A stretch of 39,992 bases of DNA from a virus: the UHGV virus genome UHGV-0186582; one strand, 5' to 3'. The notes under the pieces are model-generated. The model was given only the letters and a program-made list of their open reading frames with translations, was not told the origin of the DNA and did no database searches. The position numbers and the translations under genes were made by a program. Position 1 is the stretch's first letter; each line of letters opens with the position of its first letter. This document shows, piece by piece, positions 7,234 to 27,140 of this stretch.

Positions 7234-7820
7234 TAGCCGCCTCCCAGTAATGACGCCACGTTACCAGTGATGCTTTTCAGCAGTGAAGTATCTGGAGGCT
7301 TTGTGGTTTTGTTGCCGCTGTTCTGTACCGCCGACGTGCTGGCCCCTTCCTTCATGTTGGTTTTATCCGCGACGGTAATCTGCTGTGTCCGGGAGATAAT
7401 GACCTCCCTCAGGGTGAGGACGGCGGACAGGACGTTTTCGGTTGTCTTGTCCGTCGTCACTTCCAGCGCCCGGATCAACATGTTGCTGTACAGCCGTTTA
7501 CCGGTTACCACATCGAAGGGGATACGGATTTCCTGCAGATCCAGTAGCTCCTGATACGTCTGCTGAGGACTCAGGCCGAGCATGCTGGTAGCCGTCAGAT
7601 TACTGGCAAAATCCAGCAATGCACCGCCACCGGCGAAACCAACCTCCATCACCACTTCTGACGGTTTTTTATAGGCATGATCAGCGACAGCGGCCCCGAC
7701 CTCTACCGGATGCTCTGTTATTTCAAGCATATCTGTATGCTTCTCTGAAATAACAACACTGGGAACAATCATTCCTATTTTTCTGCTCTGCTGATGAAAA
7801 AGTGTAGAGAGAATATCCAC
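7233..7820 (-). CDS. Hypothetical tail protein
   Basis: 195-aa ORF immediately downstream of tape measure gene. Confidence 0.4.
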   Translation of the reverse strand: MDILSTLFHQQSRKIGMIVPSVVISEKHTDMLEITEHPVEVGAAVADHAYKKPSEVVMEVGFAGGGALLDFASNLTATSMLGLSPQQTYQELLDLQEIRIPFDVVTGKRLYSNMLIRALEVTTDKTTENVLSAVLTLREVIISRTQQITVADKTNMKEGASTSAVQNSGNKTTKPPDTSLLKSITGNVASLLGGG

Positions 7821-9829
7821 TAACCCACCCTCACCTGATTACTTCGCATGACCTGAGCATTTGCAGACTGTTGCCGACGTGCAACCTCATTACCGACAGC
7901 GTGCGGATCTCCGCCACCGTAAATGTGGTAAGTATTTTGCTGGTTAACCTCTGTCACTTTGCCACTAATTCCTGCCACGGCAGCCTTATTAATCAGCTCT
8001 CGAGAATAGATATTTCTTCCATTTTCATGCTGGATAATACTGCTCATCAATGCTGACATGGTTTGCGGATCGCTCATATTCAGGGTAGCCCGGGGATCCA
8101 CTCCCAGACGTTGCGATACAGCCCTGATATACGCAGTTGTGTTGTTATTATCAGACGCAGGTGCCCAGGTAGAGATAATTTTCTCCACGCTGTTTATTCC
8201 ACGTCCGGCGTACAACATTAACTGACGAGCAAGAGCCCGTAATCCATCAAAAGCAGTTTCAAATCTGGCAAATCGCCCGCCCGGGCGTTCAAGAGAAGCC
8301 CCTGCCTGACCAGCAAAATTAAGGTTTCCCGGATTGTTATTCCGTTCTCCTCGTTTCGTAGCCTGTGCATATTGTTCCGGCTCATCATCACCAAACCAGC
8401 CGCGTACCGTCCGGCCCACGCTGCGAGGATCGAATCCCCAGTGCTCTTTAATCCAGTCGGCAGTACTGTTAGCGCTGTCTGTAACCATCGGCATCGCTGA
8501 CGGATTTTCGCTGCCCTGATTAAGTATCTGTTTGCTGATGCTGACGGCATCAGCCCAGCGGCCATCTTTGATAGCGTTGAGCAGGTCGGCGATCATGTTC
8601 AGCATTTTGCTGAATTCGCCCATCTGGTCGATGAAGTTGCTGAAATCCCACTTCAGGGACCATGATTTGGGGTCAATATTGAGCAGTTTCGCCAGCGCTT
8701 TCGCCAGTTCATTAACAGACCCTTTCAGGTCACGAACCATCTTCAGCGCGGCATCGACCTCCGGCTTCCACTTACCCCAGTCAATCAGGCTGTCGCCGCC
8801 TTCCTTCCAGGTCTGATAGTCCTCCCACAGAAGGGCAATCCCCGCCGCCAACGCGGTAATGAGGCCAATCGGCGACATCCAGAACGTACTGTTCAGAATG
8901 CGCAGTGCAATCGTCAGCGCGCCAAACAGCGAGATGAGCTCCCGCGTTTGCTTATCCAGCGATTGCCACCAGGTGATAAGGCCTGATGTCCCCTCAATCA
9001 GTCTGAAGAACAACCGCCCGATAATATCCCCGAGCGCCAGAATGCCTTTTATGGCTTTCGTCAGGGTCTGCTCGATACGCGGGAAGTTGTCCAGGATATG
9101 GCGGCGCAGAGTGTCCAGCGAACCCGCAAGCCCACCCGCAAGATTAGAGCCGATTTTGTCACGGGCCATGCCTGCCATCGCGCCAAACTCACGCAGGGAG
9201 GTCATAAATTTGTTGGAGCTTCTGGCCGCCTCGTCAGCATTGAAGCCGATAGCTTTCGCCATTGCGCTGTACTGCCCGGAGAAGCCACCCACACCCCGGC
9301 GCATCGCCATAAGGGTATTTTCGTCAATGCCCAGCATCTGCGCATACTGGTTAGCCCGGTAATACGGCATGCCGCTGAGCTTCTGGCCTACACCTGTAAA
9401 AATAGCGGCCATGTCACGCATGTTACCGCTGGCATCACGGGTCTGTACGCCCAGGCGATTCAGAAAACCTTCTGCACCGGGATTGTTACGAATAAACCGG
9501 GAGAGGCTTTCCAGAGAAGATCGCGCAGCGTCCACGCTGCCGCCAACCTGCGAAACCGCATAGCCAATAGACTGAATTCCCTGGACTGTCGCGCCGGTGC
9601 GCTGTGACGCCCAGTAAAGATTATCCAGGCCGGAGGCAATCTTAGCCGTAAAGGCCACCACAGACAGTGCAGCTCCTTCAACGGACACCCCCATTTTGAT
9701 GACATTTGCAGTTGTACCGGCGAGGACAGAACCGAACTTTTTCGCGCCTGCCTCATCCACACTGAAGCCAAGCGAGACGAGGAAATCTTTAATAGTTTCA
9801 GCGTTCATTATCCTCTCTCCATTTCTCAA
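7820..9829 (-). CDS. Tail tape measure protein
   Basis: 669 aa, long helical/Gly-Ala-rich protein following tail chaperone; ATG overlaps upstream frame stop (ATGA). Confidence 0.75.
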   Translation of the reverse strand: MRNGERIMNAETIKDFLVSLGFSVDEAGAKKFGSVLAGTTANVIKMGVSVEGAALSVVAFTAKIASGLDNLYWASQRTGATVQGIQSIGYAVSQVGGSVDAARSSLESLSRFIRNNPGAEGFLNRLGVQTRDASGNMRDMAAIFTGVGQKLSGMPYYRANQYAQMLGIDENTLMAMRRGVGGFSGQYSAMAKAIGFNADEAARSSNKFMTSLREFGAMAGMARDKIGSNLAGGLAGSLDTLRRHILDNFPRIEQTLTKAIKGILALGDIIGRLFFRLIEGTSGLITWWQSLDKQTRELISLFGALTIALRILNSTFWMSPIGLITALAAGIALLWEDYQTWKEGGDSLIDWGKWKPEVDAALKMVRDLKGSVNELAKALAKLLNIDPKSWSLKWDFSNFIDQMGEFSKMLNMIADLLNAIKDGRWADAVSISKQILNQGSENPSAMPMVTDSANSTADWIKEHWGFDPRSVGRTVRGWFGDDEPEQYAQATKRGERNNNPGNLNFAGQAGASLERPGGRFARFETAFDGLRALARQLMLYAGRGINSVEKIISTWAPASDNNNTTAYIRAVSQRLGVDPRATLNMSDPQTMSALMSSIIQHENGRNIYSRELINKAAVAGISGKVTEVNQQNTYHIYGGGDPHAVGNEVARRQQSANAQVMRSNQVRVG

Positions 9830-10040
9830 TGCGCCGCTGGTTATCCGCTTTTACCGCCAGATGGTCATTCAAGAGAGCAATGTCATACAAATCGACAGAG
9901 CCATCTTTAAGTGCTGTATAGGGAATTAACCCGGCGTCAACCGGATTGAGAAGGTAGGACAGCCCGTCCGGCAGGCTGTTAAACGTCAGCCCTGTTGCAG
10001 GCTCTGTGTCGTGCTGGTAAGGGGTGTAGGCAAAAAATTT
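9826..10040 (-). CDS. -1 frame extension of the tail assembly chaperone (G/GT-like programmed frameshift product)
   Basis: Slippery heptamer A-AAT-TTT (minus strand, plus 10034-10040) about 17 codons before the chaperone stop; the -1 frame stays open ~70 codons to a TGA overlapping the tape measure ATG. Confidence 0.45.
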
Positions 10041-10438
10041 CCCAGTGAATCGGCGACCACCCGCGCCACCAACTGCAGCATGGTTAGCAGGTCGATATCA
10101 TCGAACATCAGCTGACCGCTGTTGAATACCGGCGTCCATCCGTCCATGTGCTTACGTGACACTACGGCCAGGCAAGGATGAATAATCGCGTTGGTATCTT
10201 CTTCAGTCAGGGAAGACAGTTCCTCAGCGATACGCGGGAGCATGGTTTCAAACACCGGTTTTAACTGCTCGAATTTCACGGTGTCGATTTTGCCGTCAGC
10301 AGGCAAACATGAGCGAATGCTCCCGAAATCTGACATCATTCCCGCCAGTACCGGCAGAAGTTTGCGGGTCACTTTCAGCTGGTCAAAAACGCTGAGTTTT
10401 GCCACGCGATATTTCATGCCTTTGATTTCGAATTCCAT
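9986..10438 (-). CDS. Tail assembly chaperone
   Basis: 150-aa ORF between tube and tape measure; slippery site near 3' end. Confidence 0.55.
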   Translation of the reverse strand: MEFEIKGMKYRVAKLSVFDQLKVTRKLLPVLAGMMSDFGSIRSCLPADGKIDTVKFEQLKPVFETMLPRIAEELSSLTEEDTNAIIHPCLAVVSRKHMDGWTPVFNSGQLMFDDIDLLTMLQLVARVVADSLGNFLPTPLTSTTQSLQQG

Positions 10439-10441
10439 GTA

Positions 10442-10882
10442 TTAAAACTCCCCGAGAACCTGGTCAATCTTGCCGCAGTCAAACACCCACGGCATCGTAT
10501 TACCGGTTTTAGCGTTGGCATTATCCGGTTGTTTCTGGAACGCAACACTACGTGCCGTGATGATGTCGCCGCTGACCTTGTTTCGGATCACAATAACGTT
10601 ATTCCCCCATGTGGCAGAAGACTGGCTCTGTGCGTTATACGCCAGCGACAATTTTTTATTTGTCGGTGATGTCTTCAGAAGGTTAACGGTAATCGTCCCG
10701 CTTTTATCTGCATGGAGACTGTGCATCACTTCGCCATCAGCACCGATGGTCATGGTGTTTTTAGGACCGCCCATCGCAACCACAATCCCCTCTTCAGAAC
10801 TTGCAGAACCGTACCCGAGGTCAATCGAACCGGTCGGGCCGGTCAGCGTCGCAGTGACATCCATAAAAGAATAGGTAGACAT
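10442..10882 (-). CDS. Tail tube protein
   Basis: 146 aa, directly after sheath gene. Confidence 0.55.
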   Translation of the reverse strand: MSTYSFMDVTATLTGPTGSIDLGYGSASSEEGIVVAMGGPKNTMTIGADGEVMHSLHADKSGTITVNLLKTSPTNKKLSLAYNAQSQSSATWGNNVIVIRNKVSGDIITARSVAFQKQPDNANAKTGNTMPWVFDCGKIDQVLGEF

Positions 10883-10892
10883 TCACTTCCCC

Positions 10893-12038
10893 TTAGCGAA
10901 CAACGTTAATCTGTACGTCAGCGTAATGAACCGCACCTGCAAGTTTTATTGCAGCCTGAATCACCGGAGCCTTACGGGCTTCACGTTCTGATTGTGCCTG
11001 TTCATCCAGCGGCTGGGCGTATACGTAATAACCTTTGGGCAGTGTGTCACCTGATGACAACTGACCAAGGTCGCCCCCGTTCCATACGCCCGGAGCAATC
11101 AGTCCATTCTGAACGGCCTGATCCAGTGATTTTTCAACACTTGATAACAGTCGGGTAATACCGGCTTCAGTCTGGGGTACTTTCGTGGTGCTGGTATAAA
11201 GCAGGTTATAGAGGTTGGTCTGCACATAATTCTGTAACCAGTCCAGGCCGTGGCGTTCATCAAAGAAATCGCCGTTAGCCATCACTCCCTGCTGGAGGAT
11301 AGCCGTATCATTTTGGTAGTACACGAATACATTGCAGTTTTTTGCATCAAGTGCCGATGCCTGGCTGACTGTCAGTGTTTCATACCCGACACCCGGCTCC
11401 TGCTTAAACTTGAGCGTAATCGCGGTATTACTGCCATTGAAATTAACCGTGAATGCCCGGCCAAATGCAGATAACGCAGCGTATTTATTACCCGATGAAT
11501 ACTGAATAAAACTGCGTGAATATCCGGCGGTTTTCAGTTTTGATGCCAAATCATCGCTGGATGCAGTCTGTAGGCATTTCTCATCGCTTGTCGTAATCGC
11601 CAGAATACGGCTTACAGAAGAGGATTCGATCGCCGCAGCCACTTTCAGCCAGTCTGCATCCGGAATATCTTCATCGCCTGCAATCCCCAGCCCATACCAT
11701 GAAGTATAATCGAGCATGGCATTCACAGCCTGCTCCAGCGTCTCAGGCGTGGCCTGTTCGCTGTCTCCCTTCGTTTTCACCCAACGACCAACAAAAACCT
11801 CCTGAGGTTTCGGTGATTGTGAGAAAAACACCTGCGCAGCTTTATATTCTGGTGATTCCACGCCAAAATCTTTTCCAATATCTTCCGCGGCAGAATAACG
11901 ACGAATGCGCTCACTTACCGGAATGATTGTGGACGGGCCGAGAATGAGTAATGCACCAAAATTTCGCCCTGATGCTGCACGCGGCGACATGATCACATCA
12001 ACATTAACAACGTTTGATACAGGCAAGCCCTGTGCCAT
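10893..12038 (-). CDS. Tail sheath protein
   Basis: 381 aa preceding tube gene; contractile-tail gene order. Confidence 0.6.
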
Positions 12039-25852: not shown

Positions 25853-26015
25853 CGTCTTCTTCCTCGTACATTGAGCTATTCGGATCGCTCATCAGTTCTG
25901 CGCAGCAGTGCTCACACACGTTAACTTCCAGCACATGCAGCTTTTGACCGCAATTAGCGCACGTTAAAGCCCGCTCGACGCTTTCTTGTTCGTAACTTCG
26001 ATTTGGGTCAATCAC
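25845..26015 (-). CDS. ninF: NinF
   Basis: 56 aa below ORF-track cutoff; GTG start; (V)[55 protein letters not shown] near-identical to recalled lambda NinF. Confidence 0.7.
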
Positions 26016-26194
26016 CTTGTTTTCCTCGCACGTTCTCTAAGCCACCGGATATCCCACAGGTGAGCCGTGTAGTTGAAGGTTTTTACGTCAGATTCTTTTG
26101 GGATTGGCTTGCGTTTATTTCTGGAGCGTTTCGTTGGAAGGTATTTGCAGTTTTCGCAGATTATGTCGGTAATACTTCGTCGCTGTCGTCTCAT
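26012..26194 (-). CDS. ninE: NinE
   Basis: 60 aa from internal ATG overlapping methyltransferase stop (ATGA); [52 protein letters not shown] matches recalled lambda NinE. Confidence 0.75.
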
Positions 26195-26720
26195 GCCGCC
26201 CTCCTGACGCCCTGCCCGATCGCCATCAATGCCGCTTTGGATACGGTAGTAAACATCCGTCGAGGACTGATGAACGGTCGCCAAATCAGCAGCATGGAAC
26301 CTTTGCTGTTTCCCTTCTTCTCCAGCCCTGTCGATGGTTCGATAAAATTAATCCGTCCATCAGTGATAATACGAACTTCGTCAACACTCTCCAGAGCCTT
26401 GCTGAACCATCCGACAGACATATCCTCTGGCACAAGCATCACTACCGTCTGTCGCTGTTGTATGCACTGCTCAGCGGCTTTTTCCACCCACGGCCTGATA
26501 TTGCTGTACGGTGGGTTATTCCAGATTGCACCGTGGCTTACCCACTCAGAATTGAGCGCGTCGTCGGCCTCAGTTAGCCAGTGAGCGCACAGAGCATTTT
26601 TGTCGCTCGCTGCCGAATCCAGCCAGAATCCAAACTCAATATCCAGTGCATCAAAAAGCCAAAGCGGCGTTCGCCAGCAGTCCTTGTCGTGTGCTGGCGT
26701 ATTTGATTTGATAGTCACTC
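26191..26720 (-). CDS. Phage N6-adenine DNA methyltransferase (Dam-like, NPPY motif)
   Basis: [13 protein letters not shown]...WNNPPYSN motifs; probable start is GTG at 26720 overlapping ninB stop with AAGGAG RBS (track ORF extends to TTG 26754). Confidence 0.7.
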
Positions 26721-27140
26721 TACTTGCCTCTCCTTTAGATCCCGGTACTCGCAATTATCAGGAATGGTTAGTCGTAATCCCTTCTGATGCGCCCACTGGT
26801 CAATATCGGTCAGATATTTGTGCATATCTCCAATATCAAGCTGACGTGTTGATTTAACGCATCGTGTAATATTAAAAATCGTCACCCTTTTAGCCGGACA
26901 AAATATATCTTTCAGCCACTCATGAACCTCTTCAGGCGTGAAGTTTTCAGCAGAAGCAGCAGATAACTGTGCGGCTATTTCTGCATTCCACATCCACAGC
27001 AGATTGTTTTGTGACAATGTACGCTTTTCACGGTACTCAGATATTTTGATTCGCCAGCGTTTGCCAGTAGAGAGGATTTGTTTCAGAACTAACCAGAATT
27101 GTGATTTATTGGTTTCGTGCAGAATGAAATCATTCATCAT
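26715..27140 (-). CDS. ninB: NinB-family recombination protein (Orf-like)
   Basis: 141 aa; RTLSQNNLLWMW motif resembles lambda NinB RSLDQNRKLWACL; first gene after tR2-like terminator. Confidence 0.55.
   Translation of the reverse strand: MMNDFILHETNKSQFWLVLKQILSTGKRWRIKISEYREKRTLSQNNLLWMWNAEIAAQLSAASAENFTPEEVHEWLKDIFCPAKRVTIFNITRCVKSTRQLDIGDMHKYLTDIDQWAHQKGLRLTIPDNCEYRDLKERQVE

What the first reader, a model, noticed from the sequence alone, without database searches (positions are those of the whole stretch)
9826..10438. Programmed -1 frameshift candidate in the tail assembly chaperone
A slippery heptamer A-AAT-TTT sits ~17 codons before the chaperone stop, and the -1 frame from that point is open for ~70 codons across the entire chaperone-tape measure gap, ending in a TGA that overlaps the tape measure ATG. 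This reproduces the conserved G/GT arrangement of long-tailed phages and explains the otherwise gene-free 156-bp gap.
Basis: partly seen in the sequence, partly recalled or inferred. Interest (0 to 1): 0.4.

Follow-up and report, generated by a model that had tools for sequence, protein, structure and literature searches.

The report
Tail chaperone -1 frameshift site confirmed
The gap between a prophage's tail chaperone gene and its tape measure gene encodes the second half of a longer chaperone, almost certainly made when ribosomes slip back one base; this is an ordinary, well-known phage arrangement that most database records for this lineage do not annotate.

Summary
All genes here are on the minus strand. 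The 150-aa tail assembly chaperone (10438..9986, Pfam Phage_TAC_15) lies between the tube gene and the tape measure gene. The -1 frame then stays open for 78 codons. It matches Pfam DUF6889 (8.8e-20) and ends at TGA 9800..9798, 8 nt past the tape measure ATG (9808).

In about 140 related loci (chaperone identity 47-99%) the extension is in the -1 frame at the same junction, apart from three altered or truncated loci. The "gap" is under purifying selection only in that frame (pN/pS 0.33 against about 1.4). T_TTT_TTN is invariant in 93 unique sequences. Most -1 ORFs have no usable start codon. No conserved downstream RNA structure was found.

GenBank records for Klebsiella phage Mulock and Burkholderia phage Magia already annotate the homologous frameshift product. 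RefSeq instead calls a 54-aa CTG-start "DUF6889 family protein". This is a new member of a known kind, of low interest beyond correcting annotation.

The parts
10893..12038 (-). Tail sheath gene (381 aa)
   Evidence: Pfam DUF3383/E217_gp31_N 1.1e-100; phrog_205 tail sheath 2.3e-135
10442..10882 (-). Tail tube gene (146 aa), immediately upstream of the chaperone
   Evidence: Pfam PF11681 (KPP10_Orf10 / Phage_Tube_PhiTE) 8.8e-61
9986..10438 (-). Tail assembly chaperone, frame-0 product (G-like, 150 aa including a variable 15-residue tail after the slip site)
   Evidence: Pfam Phage_TAC_15 2.9e-32; phrog_1688 2.5e-65. MLQLVARVVADSLGNFL is invariant and the tail after it is variable.
10031..10043 (-).
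   Evidence: Unique in the window. Of 93 unique relatives, T_TTT_TTN is kept in 93, A_AAT_TTT in 88 and G_GGA_AAT in 85. Asn is always AAT (or another NNT codon), Phe135 is always TTT and the next codon is always TTN, whereas other Phe codons in the gene are about 50:50 TTT/TTC.
9798..10037 (-). -1 frame extension (T-like part of the fusion; 78 sense codons after Phe135, plus stop TGA 9800..9798). The fusion is 213 aa.
   Evidence: Translation. tblastn finds it in the -1 frame at the same junction in about 140 loci. pN/pS is 0.33 in this frame against 1.4 in the other two in the gap, and 0.53 against 1.33 in the overlap.
9807..9923 (-). DUF6889 domain (fusion residues 173-211)
   Evidence: Pfam PF21829 8.8e-20; phrog_4364 1.3e-22 over residues 161-213. 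RefSeq annotates window 9962..9798 as a 54-aa CTG-start 'DUF6889 family protein'.
9812..9820 (-). Shine-Dalgarno-like GGAGAGAGG of the tape measure gene, embedded in the end of the -1 extension
   Evidence: Read directly from the sequence. Conserved in relatives.
7820..9808 (-). Tape measure protein gene (662 aa from ATG 9808) with a C-terminal lytic transglycosylase-like region
   Evidence: phrog_2276 6.2e-282; Pfam PhageMin_Tail below threshold. Annotated as tape measure or lytic transglycosylase in relatives.

Best explanation
This is a lambda G/GT-type (P2 E/E+E'-type) programmed -1 ribosomal frameshift in the tail assembly chaperone gene of a SEN34-like (Brunovirus-like) temperate myovirus prophage of Escherichia coli.

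Most ribosomes translate the 150-aa chaperone and stop at 9986. A minority slip back one nucleotide on the run GGGAAATTTTTTG (10043..10031). They continue for 78 codons in the -1 frame and make a 213-aa fusion whose C-terminal part is the DUF6889 domain. They terminate at TGA 9800..9798, just inside the tape measure gene.

By analogy with lambda gpG/gpGT, both products would coat the tape measure protein through the shared N-terminal domain, and the -1-encoded domain would recruit the tube protein. The slippery sequence would set a fixed ratio of the two products.

Shown here: the coding capacity, the frame relationship, the conserved slippery run, frame-specific purifying selection, the absence of a usable start codon in most -1 ORFs, and physical linkage of the two domains in other lineages.

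Inferred: that ribosomes actually shift, which heptamer they use, the efficiency, and what the DUF6889 domain binds. A shift on G_GGA_AAT or A_AAT_TTT would give ...GNFFAY..., and a shift on T_TTT_TTG would give ...GNFLAY....
For: - Gene order is sheath, tube, chaperone (Phage_TAC_15), gap, tape measure.
- The -1 extension matches DUF6889 at 8.8e-20 and phrog_4364 at 1.3e-22.
- The extension abuts chaperone residue 135 in the -1 frame in about 140 loci at 47-99% chaperone identity. The exceptions are L004, L035 and a truncated locus.
- The -1 ORF runs 77-83 codons in nearly all, and in most it ends 8 nt past the tape measure ATG.
- Nei-Gojobori pN/pS in the gap is 0.33 in the -1 frame against 1.44 and 1.40 in the other frames. 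In the overlap it is 0.53 (-1 frame) against 1.33 (chaperone frame).
- T_TTT_TTN is invariant in 93 of 93 unique sequences, and synonymous sites of the preceding codons are frozen.
- 29 of 97 unique -1 ORFs have no ATG at all. 86 of 97 have no start codon with an SD-like motif upstream.
- The SLPDG motif, upstream of RefSeq's called CTG start, is conserved.
- Distant phages keep at least one of the three heptamer positions even without a T run: C_CCT_TTT in Magia and BgManors32, and G_GGA_AAT in Bordetella IFTN9.
- Single-ORF Phage_TAC_15 + DUF6889 proteins of about 200 aa exist in distant lineages. One contig carries a short chaperone gene and a long chaperone-DUF6889 gene in tandem.
- A T7 variant contig encodes exactly the predicted ...GNFFAY... 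fusion.
- Mulock and Magia GenBank records annotate a 'tape measure chaperone frameshift product' at the homologous site.
- P2 frameshifts at TTTTTTG without a downstream structure (PMC3091744).
Against: - There is no protein-level or reporter evidence for this phage or any close relative.
- No stimulatory RNA structure was found. Downstream folding z-scores are -0.34 and +0.28, and RNAalifold found no conserved pairs. Efficiency may therefore be low. Lambda and P2 also lack such structures.
- U_UU.U_UU.G is not in the top-efficiency class in E. coli reporter assays (PMC4066793).
- The shift codon is ambiguous among three heptamers.
- The function of the DUF6889 domain rests on analogy only. 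The AlphaFold model of the C-terminal part was poor and found no structural match.
Confidence: 0.9

Rival explanations
1. The DUF6889 region is an independent small gene, as RefSeq annotates it (a 54-aa product from CTG at 9962). It would be translated by its own initiation and not joined to the chaperone.
For: RefSeq/PGAP annotates a standalone 'DUF6889 family protein'. Databases hold many 40-90-aa DUF6889 mini-ORFs, some named 'NTP pyrophosphohydrolase'.
Against: - The window's -1 ORF has no ATG or GTG. Its only start-type codons are two TTG, at codons +48 and +54 and inside the domain. PGAP has to invoke CTG.
- 86 of 97 unique -1 ORFs lack any start codon with an SD-like motif, and the position of the first ATG is not conserved.
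- Purifying selection in the -1 frame starts at the slip site, upstream of any proposed start.
- The slippery run is frozen at synonymous sites, which independent initiation would not require.
- The domain is covalently fused to the chaperone in distant lineages.
Confidence: 0.04
2. The fusion is made by transcriptional slippage. RNA polymerase would add one extra U in the T6 run, giving an mRNA subpopulation that encodes the fusion in frame, rather than ribosomes slipping.
For: The site contains a homopolymeric T6 run (T7 in five unique relatives). One assembled contig carries T7 and encodes the fusion in frame. Heptanucleotide A and U runs are noted as prone to transcriptional slippage (PMC4066793).
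Against: - Efficient bacterial transcriptional slippage generally needs longer runs of about 8-9 or more (my own knowledge, not tested here).
- Homologous systems in Magia and BgManors32 (CCCTTTTA), Bordetella IFTN9 (GGGAAATAC) and Acinetobacter AbTJ (GGGAAATTTTA) have no long run, yet keep a correctly phased heptamer.
- The phase of the run relative to frame 0 is invariant. Ribosomal slippage needs this phasing and polymerase slippage does not.
Confidence: 0.05
3. The open -1 frame is a chance ORF, or the decaying remnant of a once-fused gene, and the gap is non-coding.
For: A 78-codon open frame has a chance probability of roughly (61/64)^78, about 2%, at any one place. Heptamers occur at chance frequency in the window.
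Against: The Pfam and PHROG matches, conservation of the frame, length and stop position in about 140 loci, and pN/pS of 0.33 specific to that frame all argue against it.
Confidence: 0.01

Closest known systems
Bacteriophage lambda gpG/gpGT programmed -1 frameshift (Levin 1993; Xu, Hendrix and Duda 2004, 2013, 2014, as summarised in PMC5009743)
   Same: The chaperone gene lies directly upstream of the tape measure gene. [quoted passage not shown] One of the three heptamers here (G_GGA_AAT) resembles lambda's G_GGA_AAG.
   Different: - There is no detected sequence-family relationship: the window protein matches Phage_TAC_15 and DUF6889, and no other Pfam family matched.
- This is a myovirus (sheath plus tube) rather than a siphovirus.
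- The A-site codon of the lambda-like heptamer is AAT (Asn), not AAG (Lys).
- Three heptamers overlap.
Bacteriophage P2 E / E+E' frameshift at TTTTTTG (Christie 2002, cited in PMC3091744)
   Same: The heptamer T_TTT_TTG is identical, the virion is a contractile-tail phage, the gene lies between tube and tape measure, and no downstream hairpin is present.
   Different: The chaperone is larger (150/213 aa against 91/142 aa) and did not match the P2 GpE Pfam family. P2 has a single heptamer, whereas here it is embedded in a 13-nt triple site.
Klebsiella phage Mulock (MN098327) CPT_Mulock_014/015 and Burkholderia phage Magia (MT701587) CPT_Magia_015/016, annotated 'tape measure chaperone frameshift product'
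   Same: These are true homologues (about 59% and 30% identity to the fusion) with the same gene order. Mulock has the identical GGGAAATTTTTTG run. The joined CDS is already in GenBank.
   Different: Those are annotations without experiments, and the Mulock paper does not mention the frameshift. Magia uses C_CCT_TTT only. The window's own lineage (SEN34, YP3, vB_EcoM-606R2, E. coli prophages) is not annotated this way.

Membership tests
G/GT-type tail assembly chaperone with programmed frameshift (Xu et al. 2004 criteria) | The gene pair lies between the major tail/tube gene and the tape measure gene | tested here: met
   Tube 10882..10442, chaperone 10438..9986, extension to 9798, tape measure from 9808
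G/GT-type tail assembly chaperone with programmed frameshift (Xu et al. 2004 criteria) | The second ORF overlaps the 3' end of the first in the -1 frame and lacks its own start | tested here: met
   The -1 frame opens 21 codons before the site and runs 78 codons after it. The window has no ATG or GTG in it, and 86 of 97 relatives have no SD-linked start.
G/GT-type tail assembly chaperone with programmed frameshift (Xu et al. 2004 criteria) | A phased slippery X_XXY_YYZ sequence in the overlap, conserved in relatives | tested here: met
   There are three overlapping heptamers. T_TTT_TTN is kept in 93 of 93 unique sequences, A_AAT_TTT in 88 and G_GGA_AAT in 85. Distant phages keep at least one.
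G/GT-type tail assembly chaperone with programmed frameshift (Xu et al. 2004 criteria) | The extension is a real coding sequence (selection in the shifted frame) | tested here: met
   pN/pS is 0.33 in the -1 frame against about 1.4 in the other frames. DUF6889 and phrog_4364 match.
G/GT-type tail assembly chaperone with programmed frameshift (Xu et al. 2004 criteria) | Both the short and the fused product are made in a fixed ratio, both are needed for tail assembly, and both are absent from virions | not testable with these tools
   This needs proteomics, western blots and genetics. Indirect support comes from in-frame fusions and tandem short and long genes in other lineages.
Pfam Phage_TAC_15 (PF21822) | Score above the gathering threshold (22 bits) | tested here: met
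   112.3 bits, E = 2.9e-32, residues 7-138
Pfam DUF6889 (PF21829) | Score above the gathering threshold (23.9 bits) | tested here: met
   70.6 bits, E = 8.8e-20, fusion residues 173-211
P2 GpE / E+E' protein family | Sequence homology to P2 gpE | tested here: not met
   A Pfam scan at E <= 0.01 returned only Phage_TAC_15 and DUF6889. Only the heptamer and the gene position are shared.
Tail assembly chaperone fold (structural) | Structural similarity of the N-terminal domain to solved chaperone structures | tested here: inconclusive
   The AlphaFold2 model had mean pLDDT 57.9. Foldseek against PDB gave no hit with E <= 0.001, and phmmer against PDB gave no hit.

The most novel reading that the evidence does not exclude
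The 13-nt run may be a composite slip site. Three consecutive phased heptamers would each give ribosomes an independent chance to shift, setting a robust frameshift level without any RNA stimulator. It would yield two fusion isoforms, ...GNFFAY... and ...GNFLAY.... Across the wider Phage_TAC_15/DUF6889 family the active heptamer has moved among the three adjacent positions. In some high-GC lineages the frameshift appears to have been replaced by an in-frame fusion, or by separate short and long genes.
Probability: 0.3. Interest if true: 0.35.

Novelty: new member of a known kind. Interest (0 to 1): 0.2.

Why it matters
The main value is for annotation.

- It assigns a role to Pfam DUF6889 and phrog_4364 (currently "unknown function") as the frameshift-encoded C-terminal domain of Phage_TAC_15 chaperones.
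- RefSeq's 54-aa CTG-start "DUF6889 family protein", and the older "NTP pyrophosphohydrolase" names, are most likely fragments of a 213-aa fusion.
- The prophage region (at 60% identity or more) is present in 342 of 5,426 complete E. coli genomes, so the correction would apply widely.
- The unannotated 177-nt gap in SEN34, YP3 and the vB_EcoM phages should carry a joined CDS.

Biologically it adds one more conserved example of the G/GT paradigm in a lambda-like myovirus. It also offers a tidy comparative series (three alternative heptamers, in-frame fusions, duplicated genes) for studying how the ratio of the two products is set.

Tried and rejected
- **Downstream stimulatory RNA.** I folded 114 nt and 56 nt after the site (z = -0.34 and +0.28) and ran RNAalifold on 21 diverse relatives (2 trivial pairs, no covariation). 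No conserved structure was found. Pseudoknots were not tested.
- **Upstream SD-like stimulator.** Synonymous-site entropy upstream (codons -10 to -4) is ordinary and no conserved GGAGG-like motif is present. Rejected.
- **Structure.** The AlphaFold2 model of the fusion homologue P0001 with 18 sequences gave mean pLDDT 57.9, with the C-terminal part below 50. Foldseek against PDB gave nothing significant, and phmmer against PDB gave nothing. A combined MAFFT alignment of full-length proteins and DUF6889 fragments was misaligned and was not used.
- **NCBIfam.** No model matches either part.
- **Literature.** No paper in the library mentions DUF6889 or Phage_TAC_15. The SEN34 and Mulock papers do not mention a frameshift. 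Christie 2002 is not held.
- **Second candidate.** I considered a second frameshift candidate in the window, the Dam gene with G_GGA_AAC at 26314. I rejected it because the -1 ORF has an internal ATG, apparently preceded by an SD.
Full report
**1. What is in the sequence**

The genes in this part of the window are on the minus strand. Reading that strand gives this order:
- a 381-aa tail sheath gene, 12038..10893 (Pfam DUF3383/E217_gp31_N, phrog_205);
- a 146-aa tube gene, 10882..10442 (PF11681);
- a 150-aa ORF, 10438..9986, that matches Pfam Phage_TAC_15 (2.9e-32) and phrog_1688 "tail assembly chaperone" (2.5e-65);
- a stretch with no called gene;
- a 662-aa tape measure protein from ATG 9808 to 7820 (phrog_2276, 6.2e-282), followed by a Dit-like protein.

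The ORF finder starts the tape measure at an in-frame TTG at 9829. However, the ATG at 9808 is preceded by GGAGAGAGG, and it is the start annotated in relatives. This leaves a 177-nt gap there too.

**2. Checking the observation**

The run GGGAAATTTTTTG occurs once in the window, at 10043..10031. In the chaperone frame it reads G GGA AAT TTT TTG. It overlaps two others: G_GGA_AAT (10043..10037) and T_TTT_TTG (10037..10031).

The -1 frame reads GKFFAYTPYQHDTEPATGLTFNSLPDGLSYLLNPVDAGLIPYTALKDGSVDLYDIALLNDHLAVKADNQRRIEKWREDNER*. It is open for 78 codons after Phe135 and stops at TGA 9800..9798.

The predicted fusion is 213 aa, not ~205. Taken alone, heptamers are not remarkable. The window's ORFs of 120 aa or more hold 42 in-frame heptamers against about 51 expected. 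Only the chaperone site combines a heptamer with a long -1 frame that runs past the stop in a real gene context.

**3. Is the -1 frame coding?**

Yes. The fusion's C-terminal part matches Pfam DUF6889 (8.8e-20, residues 173-211) and phrog_4364 (1.3e-22).

I collected several sets of relatives:
- 60 prophage loci from one-genome-per-species bacterial genomes, nearly all Enterobacterales, with 47-92% chaperone identity;
- 80 IMG/VR viral contigs;
- three annotated phages: vB_EcoM-606R2, Yersinia YP3 and Salmonella SEN34.

tblastn with the chaperone (residues 1-135) and with the extension placed the extension in the -1 frame, abutting residue 135 with a one-nucleotide overlap, in every locus but three. 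The exceptions are a T7 variant (L004), one locus with a broken extension (L035) and one truncated contig. The -1 ORF after the site is 77-83 codons in nearly all, and in most it ends 8 nt past the tape measure ATG.

Nei-Gojobori estimates over 64 unique sequences gave these pN/pS values:

| Region | -1 frame | Chaperone frame | Third frame |
|---|---|---|---|
| Gap | 0.33 | 1.44 | 1.40 |
| 15-codon overlap | 0.53 | 1.33 | 0.83 |

Translation in the -1 frame therefore begins at the slippery run, and the frame-0 tail after the site is essentially unconstrained. The protein alignment agrees: MLQLVARVVADSLGNFL is invariant and is followed by a variable tail.

**4. The slippery site**

Among 93 unique sequences the T at the third position of codon 134, TTT at codon 135 and TT at the start of codon 136 never change. 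The two other conserved Phe codons examined in the gene are about 50:50 TTT/TTC. Heptamer retention is as follows:

| Heptamer | Kept in |
|---|---|
| T_TTT_TTN | 93 of 93 |
| A_AAT_TTT | 88 of 93 |
| G_GGA_AAT | 85 of 93 |

Taken alone, this favours T_TTT_TTG, the heptamer at which phage P2 makes E+E', also without a downstream structure (PMC3091744).

More distant phage homologues (30-40% identity) tell a broader story:
- Acinetobacter AbTJ has G_GGA_AAT and A_AAT_TTT.
- Bordetella IFTN9 has only G_GGA_AAT.
- Providencia PSTCR3 has only T_TTT_TTT.
- Ralstonia PY059YO380 has G_GGT_TTT and T_TTT_TTC.

Each lineage keeps at least one of three adjacent positions. E. coli reporter data place H_HH.U_UU.Y heptamers, which include A_AA.U_UU.U, among the most efficient. 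U_UU.U_UU.G is not in that class (PMC4066793).

The window therefore carries all three candidates, and which one is used cannot be decided from sequence. The two possible products differ by one residue, ...GNFFAY... or ...GNFLAY....

**5. Stimulators**

No significant or conserved RNA structure follows the site, and no conserved SD-like element precedes it. This resembles lambda and P2.

**6. Rival explanations**

- **Independent initiation.** RefSeq annotates window 9962..9798 as a 54-aa "DUF6889 family protein" that starts at CTG. Other records-63-aa fragments "NTP pyrophosphohydrolase". The window's -1 ORF has no ATG or GTG. Of 97 unique -1 ORFs, 29 have no ATG and 86 have no start codon with an SD-like motif. 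Conserved coding sequence, for example SLPDG, lies upstream of the RefSeq start.
- **Transcriptional slippage on T6.** This cannot be excluded by computation. It does not explain the invariant phase of the run, or the homologues that have a heptamer but no homopolymer run.
- **Chance or gene decay.** This is excluded by the results in section 3.

**7. Independent support for a covalent fusion**

A search of 1.84 billion representative proteins with the extension found mostly 40-90-aa mini-ORFs. It also found several single-ORF proteins of about 200 aa with Phage_TAC_15 at the N-terminus and DUF6889 at the C-terminus. Two were checked at the DNA level:
- L148 carries a genuine in-frame fusion.
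- L149 carries a 170-aa chaperone gene followed by a separate 202-aa chaperone-DUF6889 gene.

These are alternative genetic routes to the same pair of products. One Logan contig (L004) has T7 instead of T6 and encodes exactly the predicted ...GNFFAY... fusion. It may be a homopolymer error or a mutant.

**8. Comparison with what is known**

This works like lambda G/GT and P2 E/E+E' (PMC5009743; PMC3091744). By sequence family it belongs to Phage_TAC_15/DUF6889, not to the P2 GpE family. GenBank records of Klebsiella phage Mulock (identical 13-nt run) and Burkholderia phage Magia already carry a joined "tape measure chaperone frameshift product" CDS at the homologous place. The Mulock paper does not discuss it, and no paper in the library mentions DUF6889.

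The window's own lineage is not annotated this way. That lineage comprises SEN34/Brunovirus, YP3, the vB_EcoM phages, and the prophage region found (at 60% identity or more) in 342 of 5,426 complete E. coli genomes.

**9. Verdict**

The finding is correct in substance, with minor numerical corrections. It is an ordinary and expected feature of long-tailed phages, so it is a new member of a known kind. Its practical value is to correct annotation and to give DUF6889 a role. Structure prediction added nothing. Confidence that a -1 frameshifted fusion is made is about 0.9. Which heptamer is used, and how efficiently, remains open.

Noticed in passing
window 9798-9962 (minus); L147 399-563: RefSeq/PGAP annotates the end of the -1 extension as a standalone 54-aa 'DUF6889 family protein' starting at a CTG codon. 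Older NCBI records name 50-63-aa fragments of the same region 'NTP pyrophosphohydrolase'. Both look like annotation artefacts of the unrecognised frameshift. The surrounding prophage region (at 60% identity or more) is present in 342 of 5,426 complete E. coli genomes.
   Followed up: yes
L004 2475-2492 (Logan SRR23924998 contig): A close relative has T7 instead of T6 in the slippery run, giving an in-frame 213-aa chaperone-DUF6889 ORF (P0001, a cluster of 16 member sequences). It could be a homopolymer sequencing error, a GT-only mutant prophage, or RNA-derived reads. The library type could not be checked.
   Followed up: partly
L149 108-1238; L148 1038-2452: In high-GC metagenomic contigs the frameshift appears to be replaced. 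L149 has a 170-aa Phage_TAC_15 gene followed by a separate 202-aa TAC-DUF6889 gene. L148 has a single in-frame 208-aa fusion followed directly by a Dit-like gene, with no tape measure gene in between.
   Followed up: partly
P0121 (201 aa): This is a chimeric protein with an NAD_binding_7 (siroheme synthase-like) N-terminus fused to a DUF6889 C-terminus that is 98% identical to the window's extension. It is probably a misassembly or a gene call across a prophage junction.
   Followed up: no
P0137 (1857 aa), P0156 (3661 aa), P0171 (1218 aa): Very large proteins contain 6-9 repeated weak matches (31-37% identity) to residues ~3-57 of the extension. Their nature is unexplained.
   Followed up: no
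window 26012-26754 (minus): The Dam methyltransferase gene (26754..26191, Pfam Dam 1.2e-64) has an in-frame G_GGA_AAC heptamer at 26314, and its -1 frame runs 59 codons past its stop. The -1 ORF contains an internal ATG. From its translation (RQEGGM) that ATG appears to follow a GGAGG-like SD. It looks like an independent small downstream gene rather than a frameshift.
   Followed up: partly
L035 2878-3113; L048 2860-3630: Two relatives deviate. In L035 (Enterobacter sp. R1) the extension is interrupted after 38 codons and continues in another frame, suggesting a decaying prophage. In L048 (Izhakiella australiensis) the -1 frame runs 257 codons, apparently reading into the tape measure region.
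   Followed up: no
window 7820-9808 (minus): The C-terminal third of the tape measure protein matches endolysin and transglycosylase PHROGs (phrog_873, phrog_7182), and RefSeq names it 'lytic transglycosylase catalytic'. This suggests a tape measure with a built-in peptidoglycan hydrolase domain.
   Followed up: no
window 9798-9820 (minus): The tape measure gene's Shine-Dalgarno sequence and its first three codons lie inside the end of the -1 extension. Frameshifted ribosomes therefore terminate 8 nt after the tape measure ATG, whereas unshifted ribosomes stop 177 nt upstream. Possible translational coupling between the fusion product and the tape measure was not examined.
   Followed up: no
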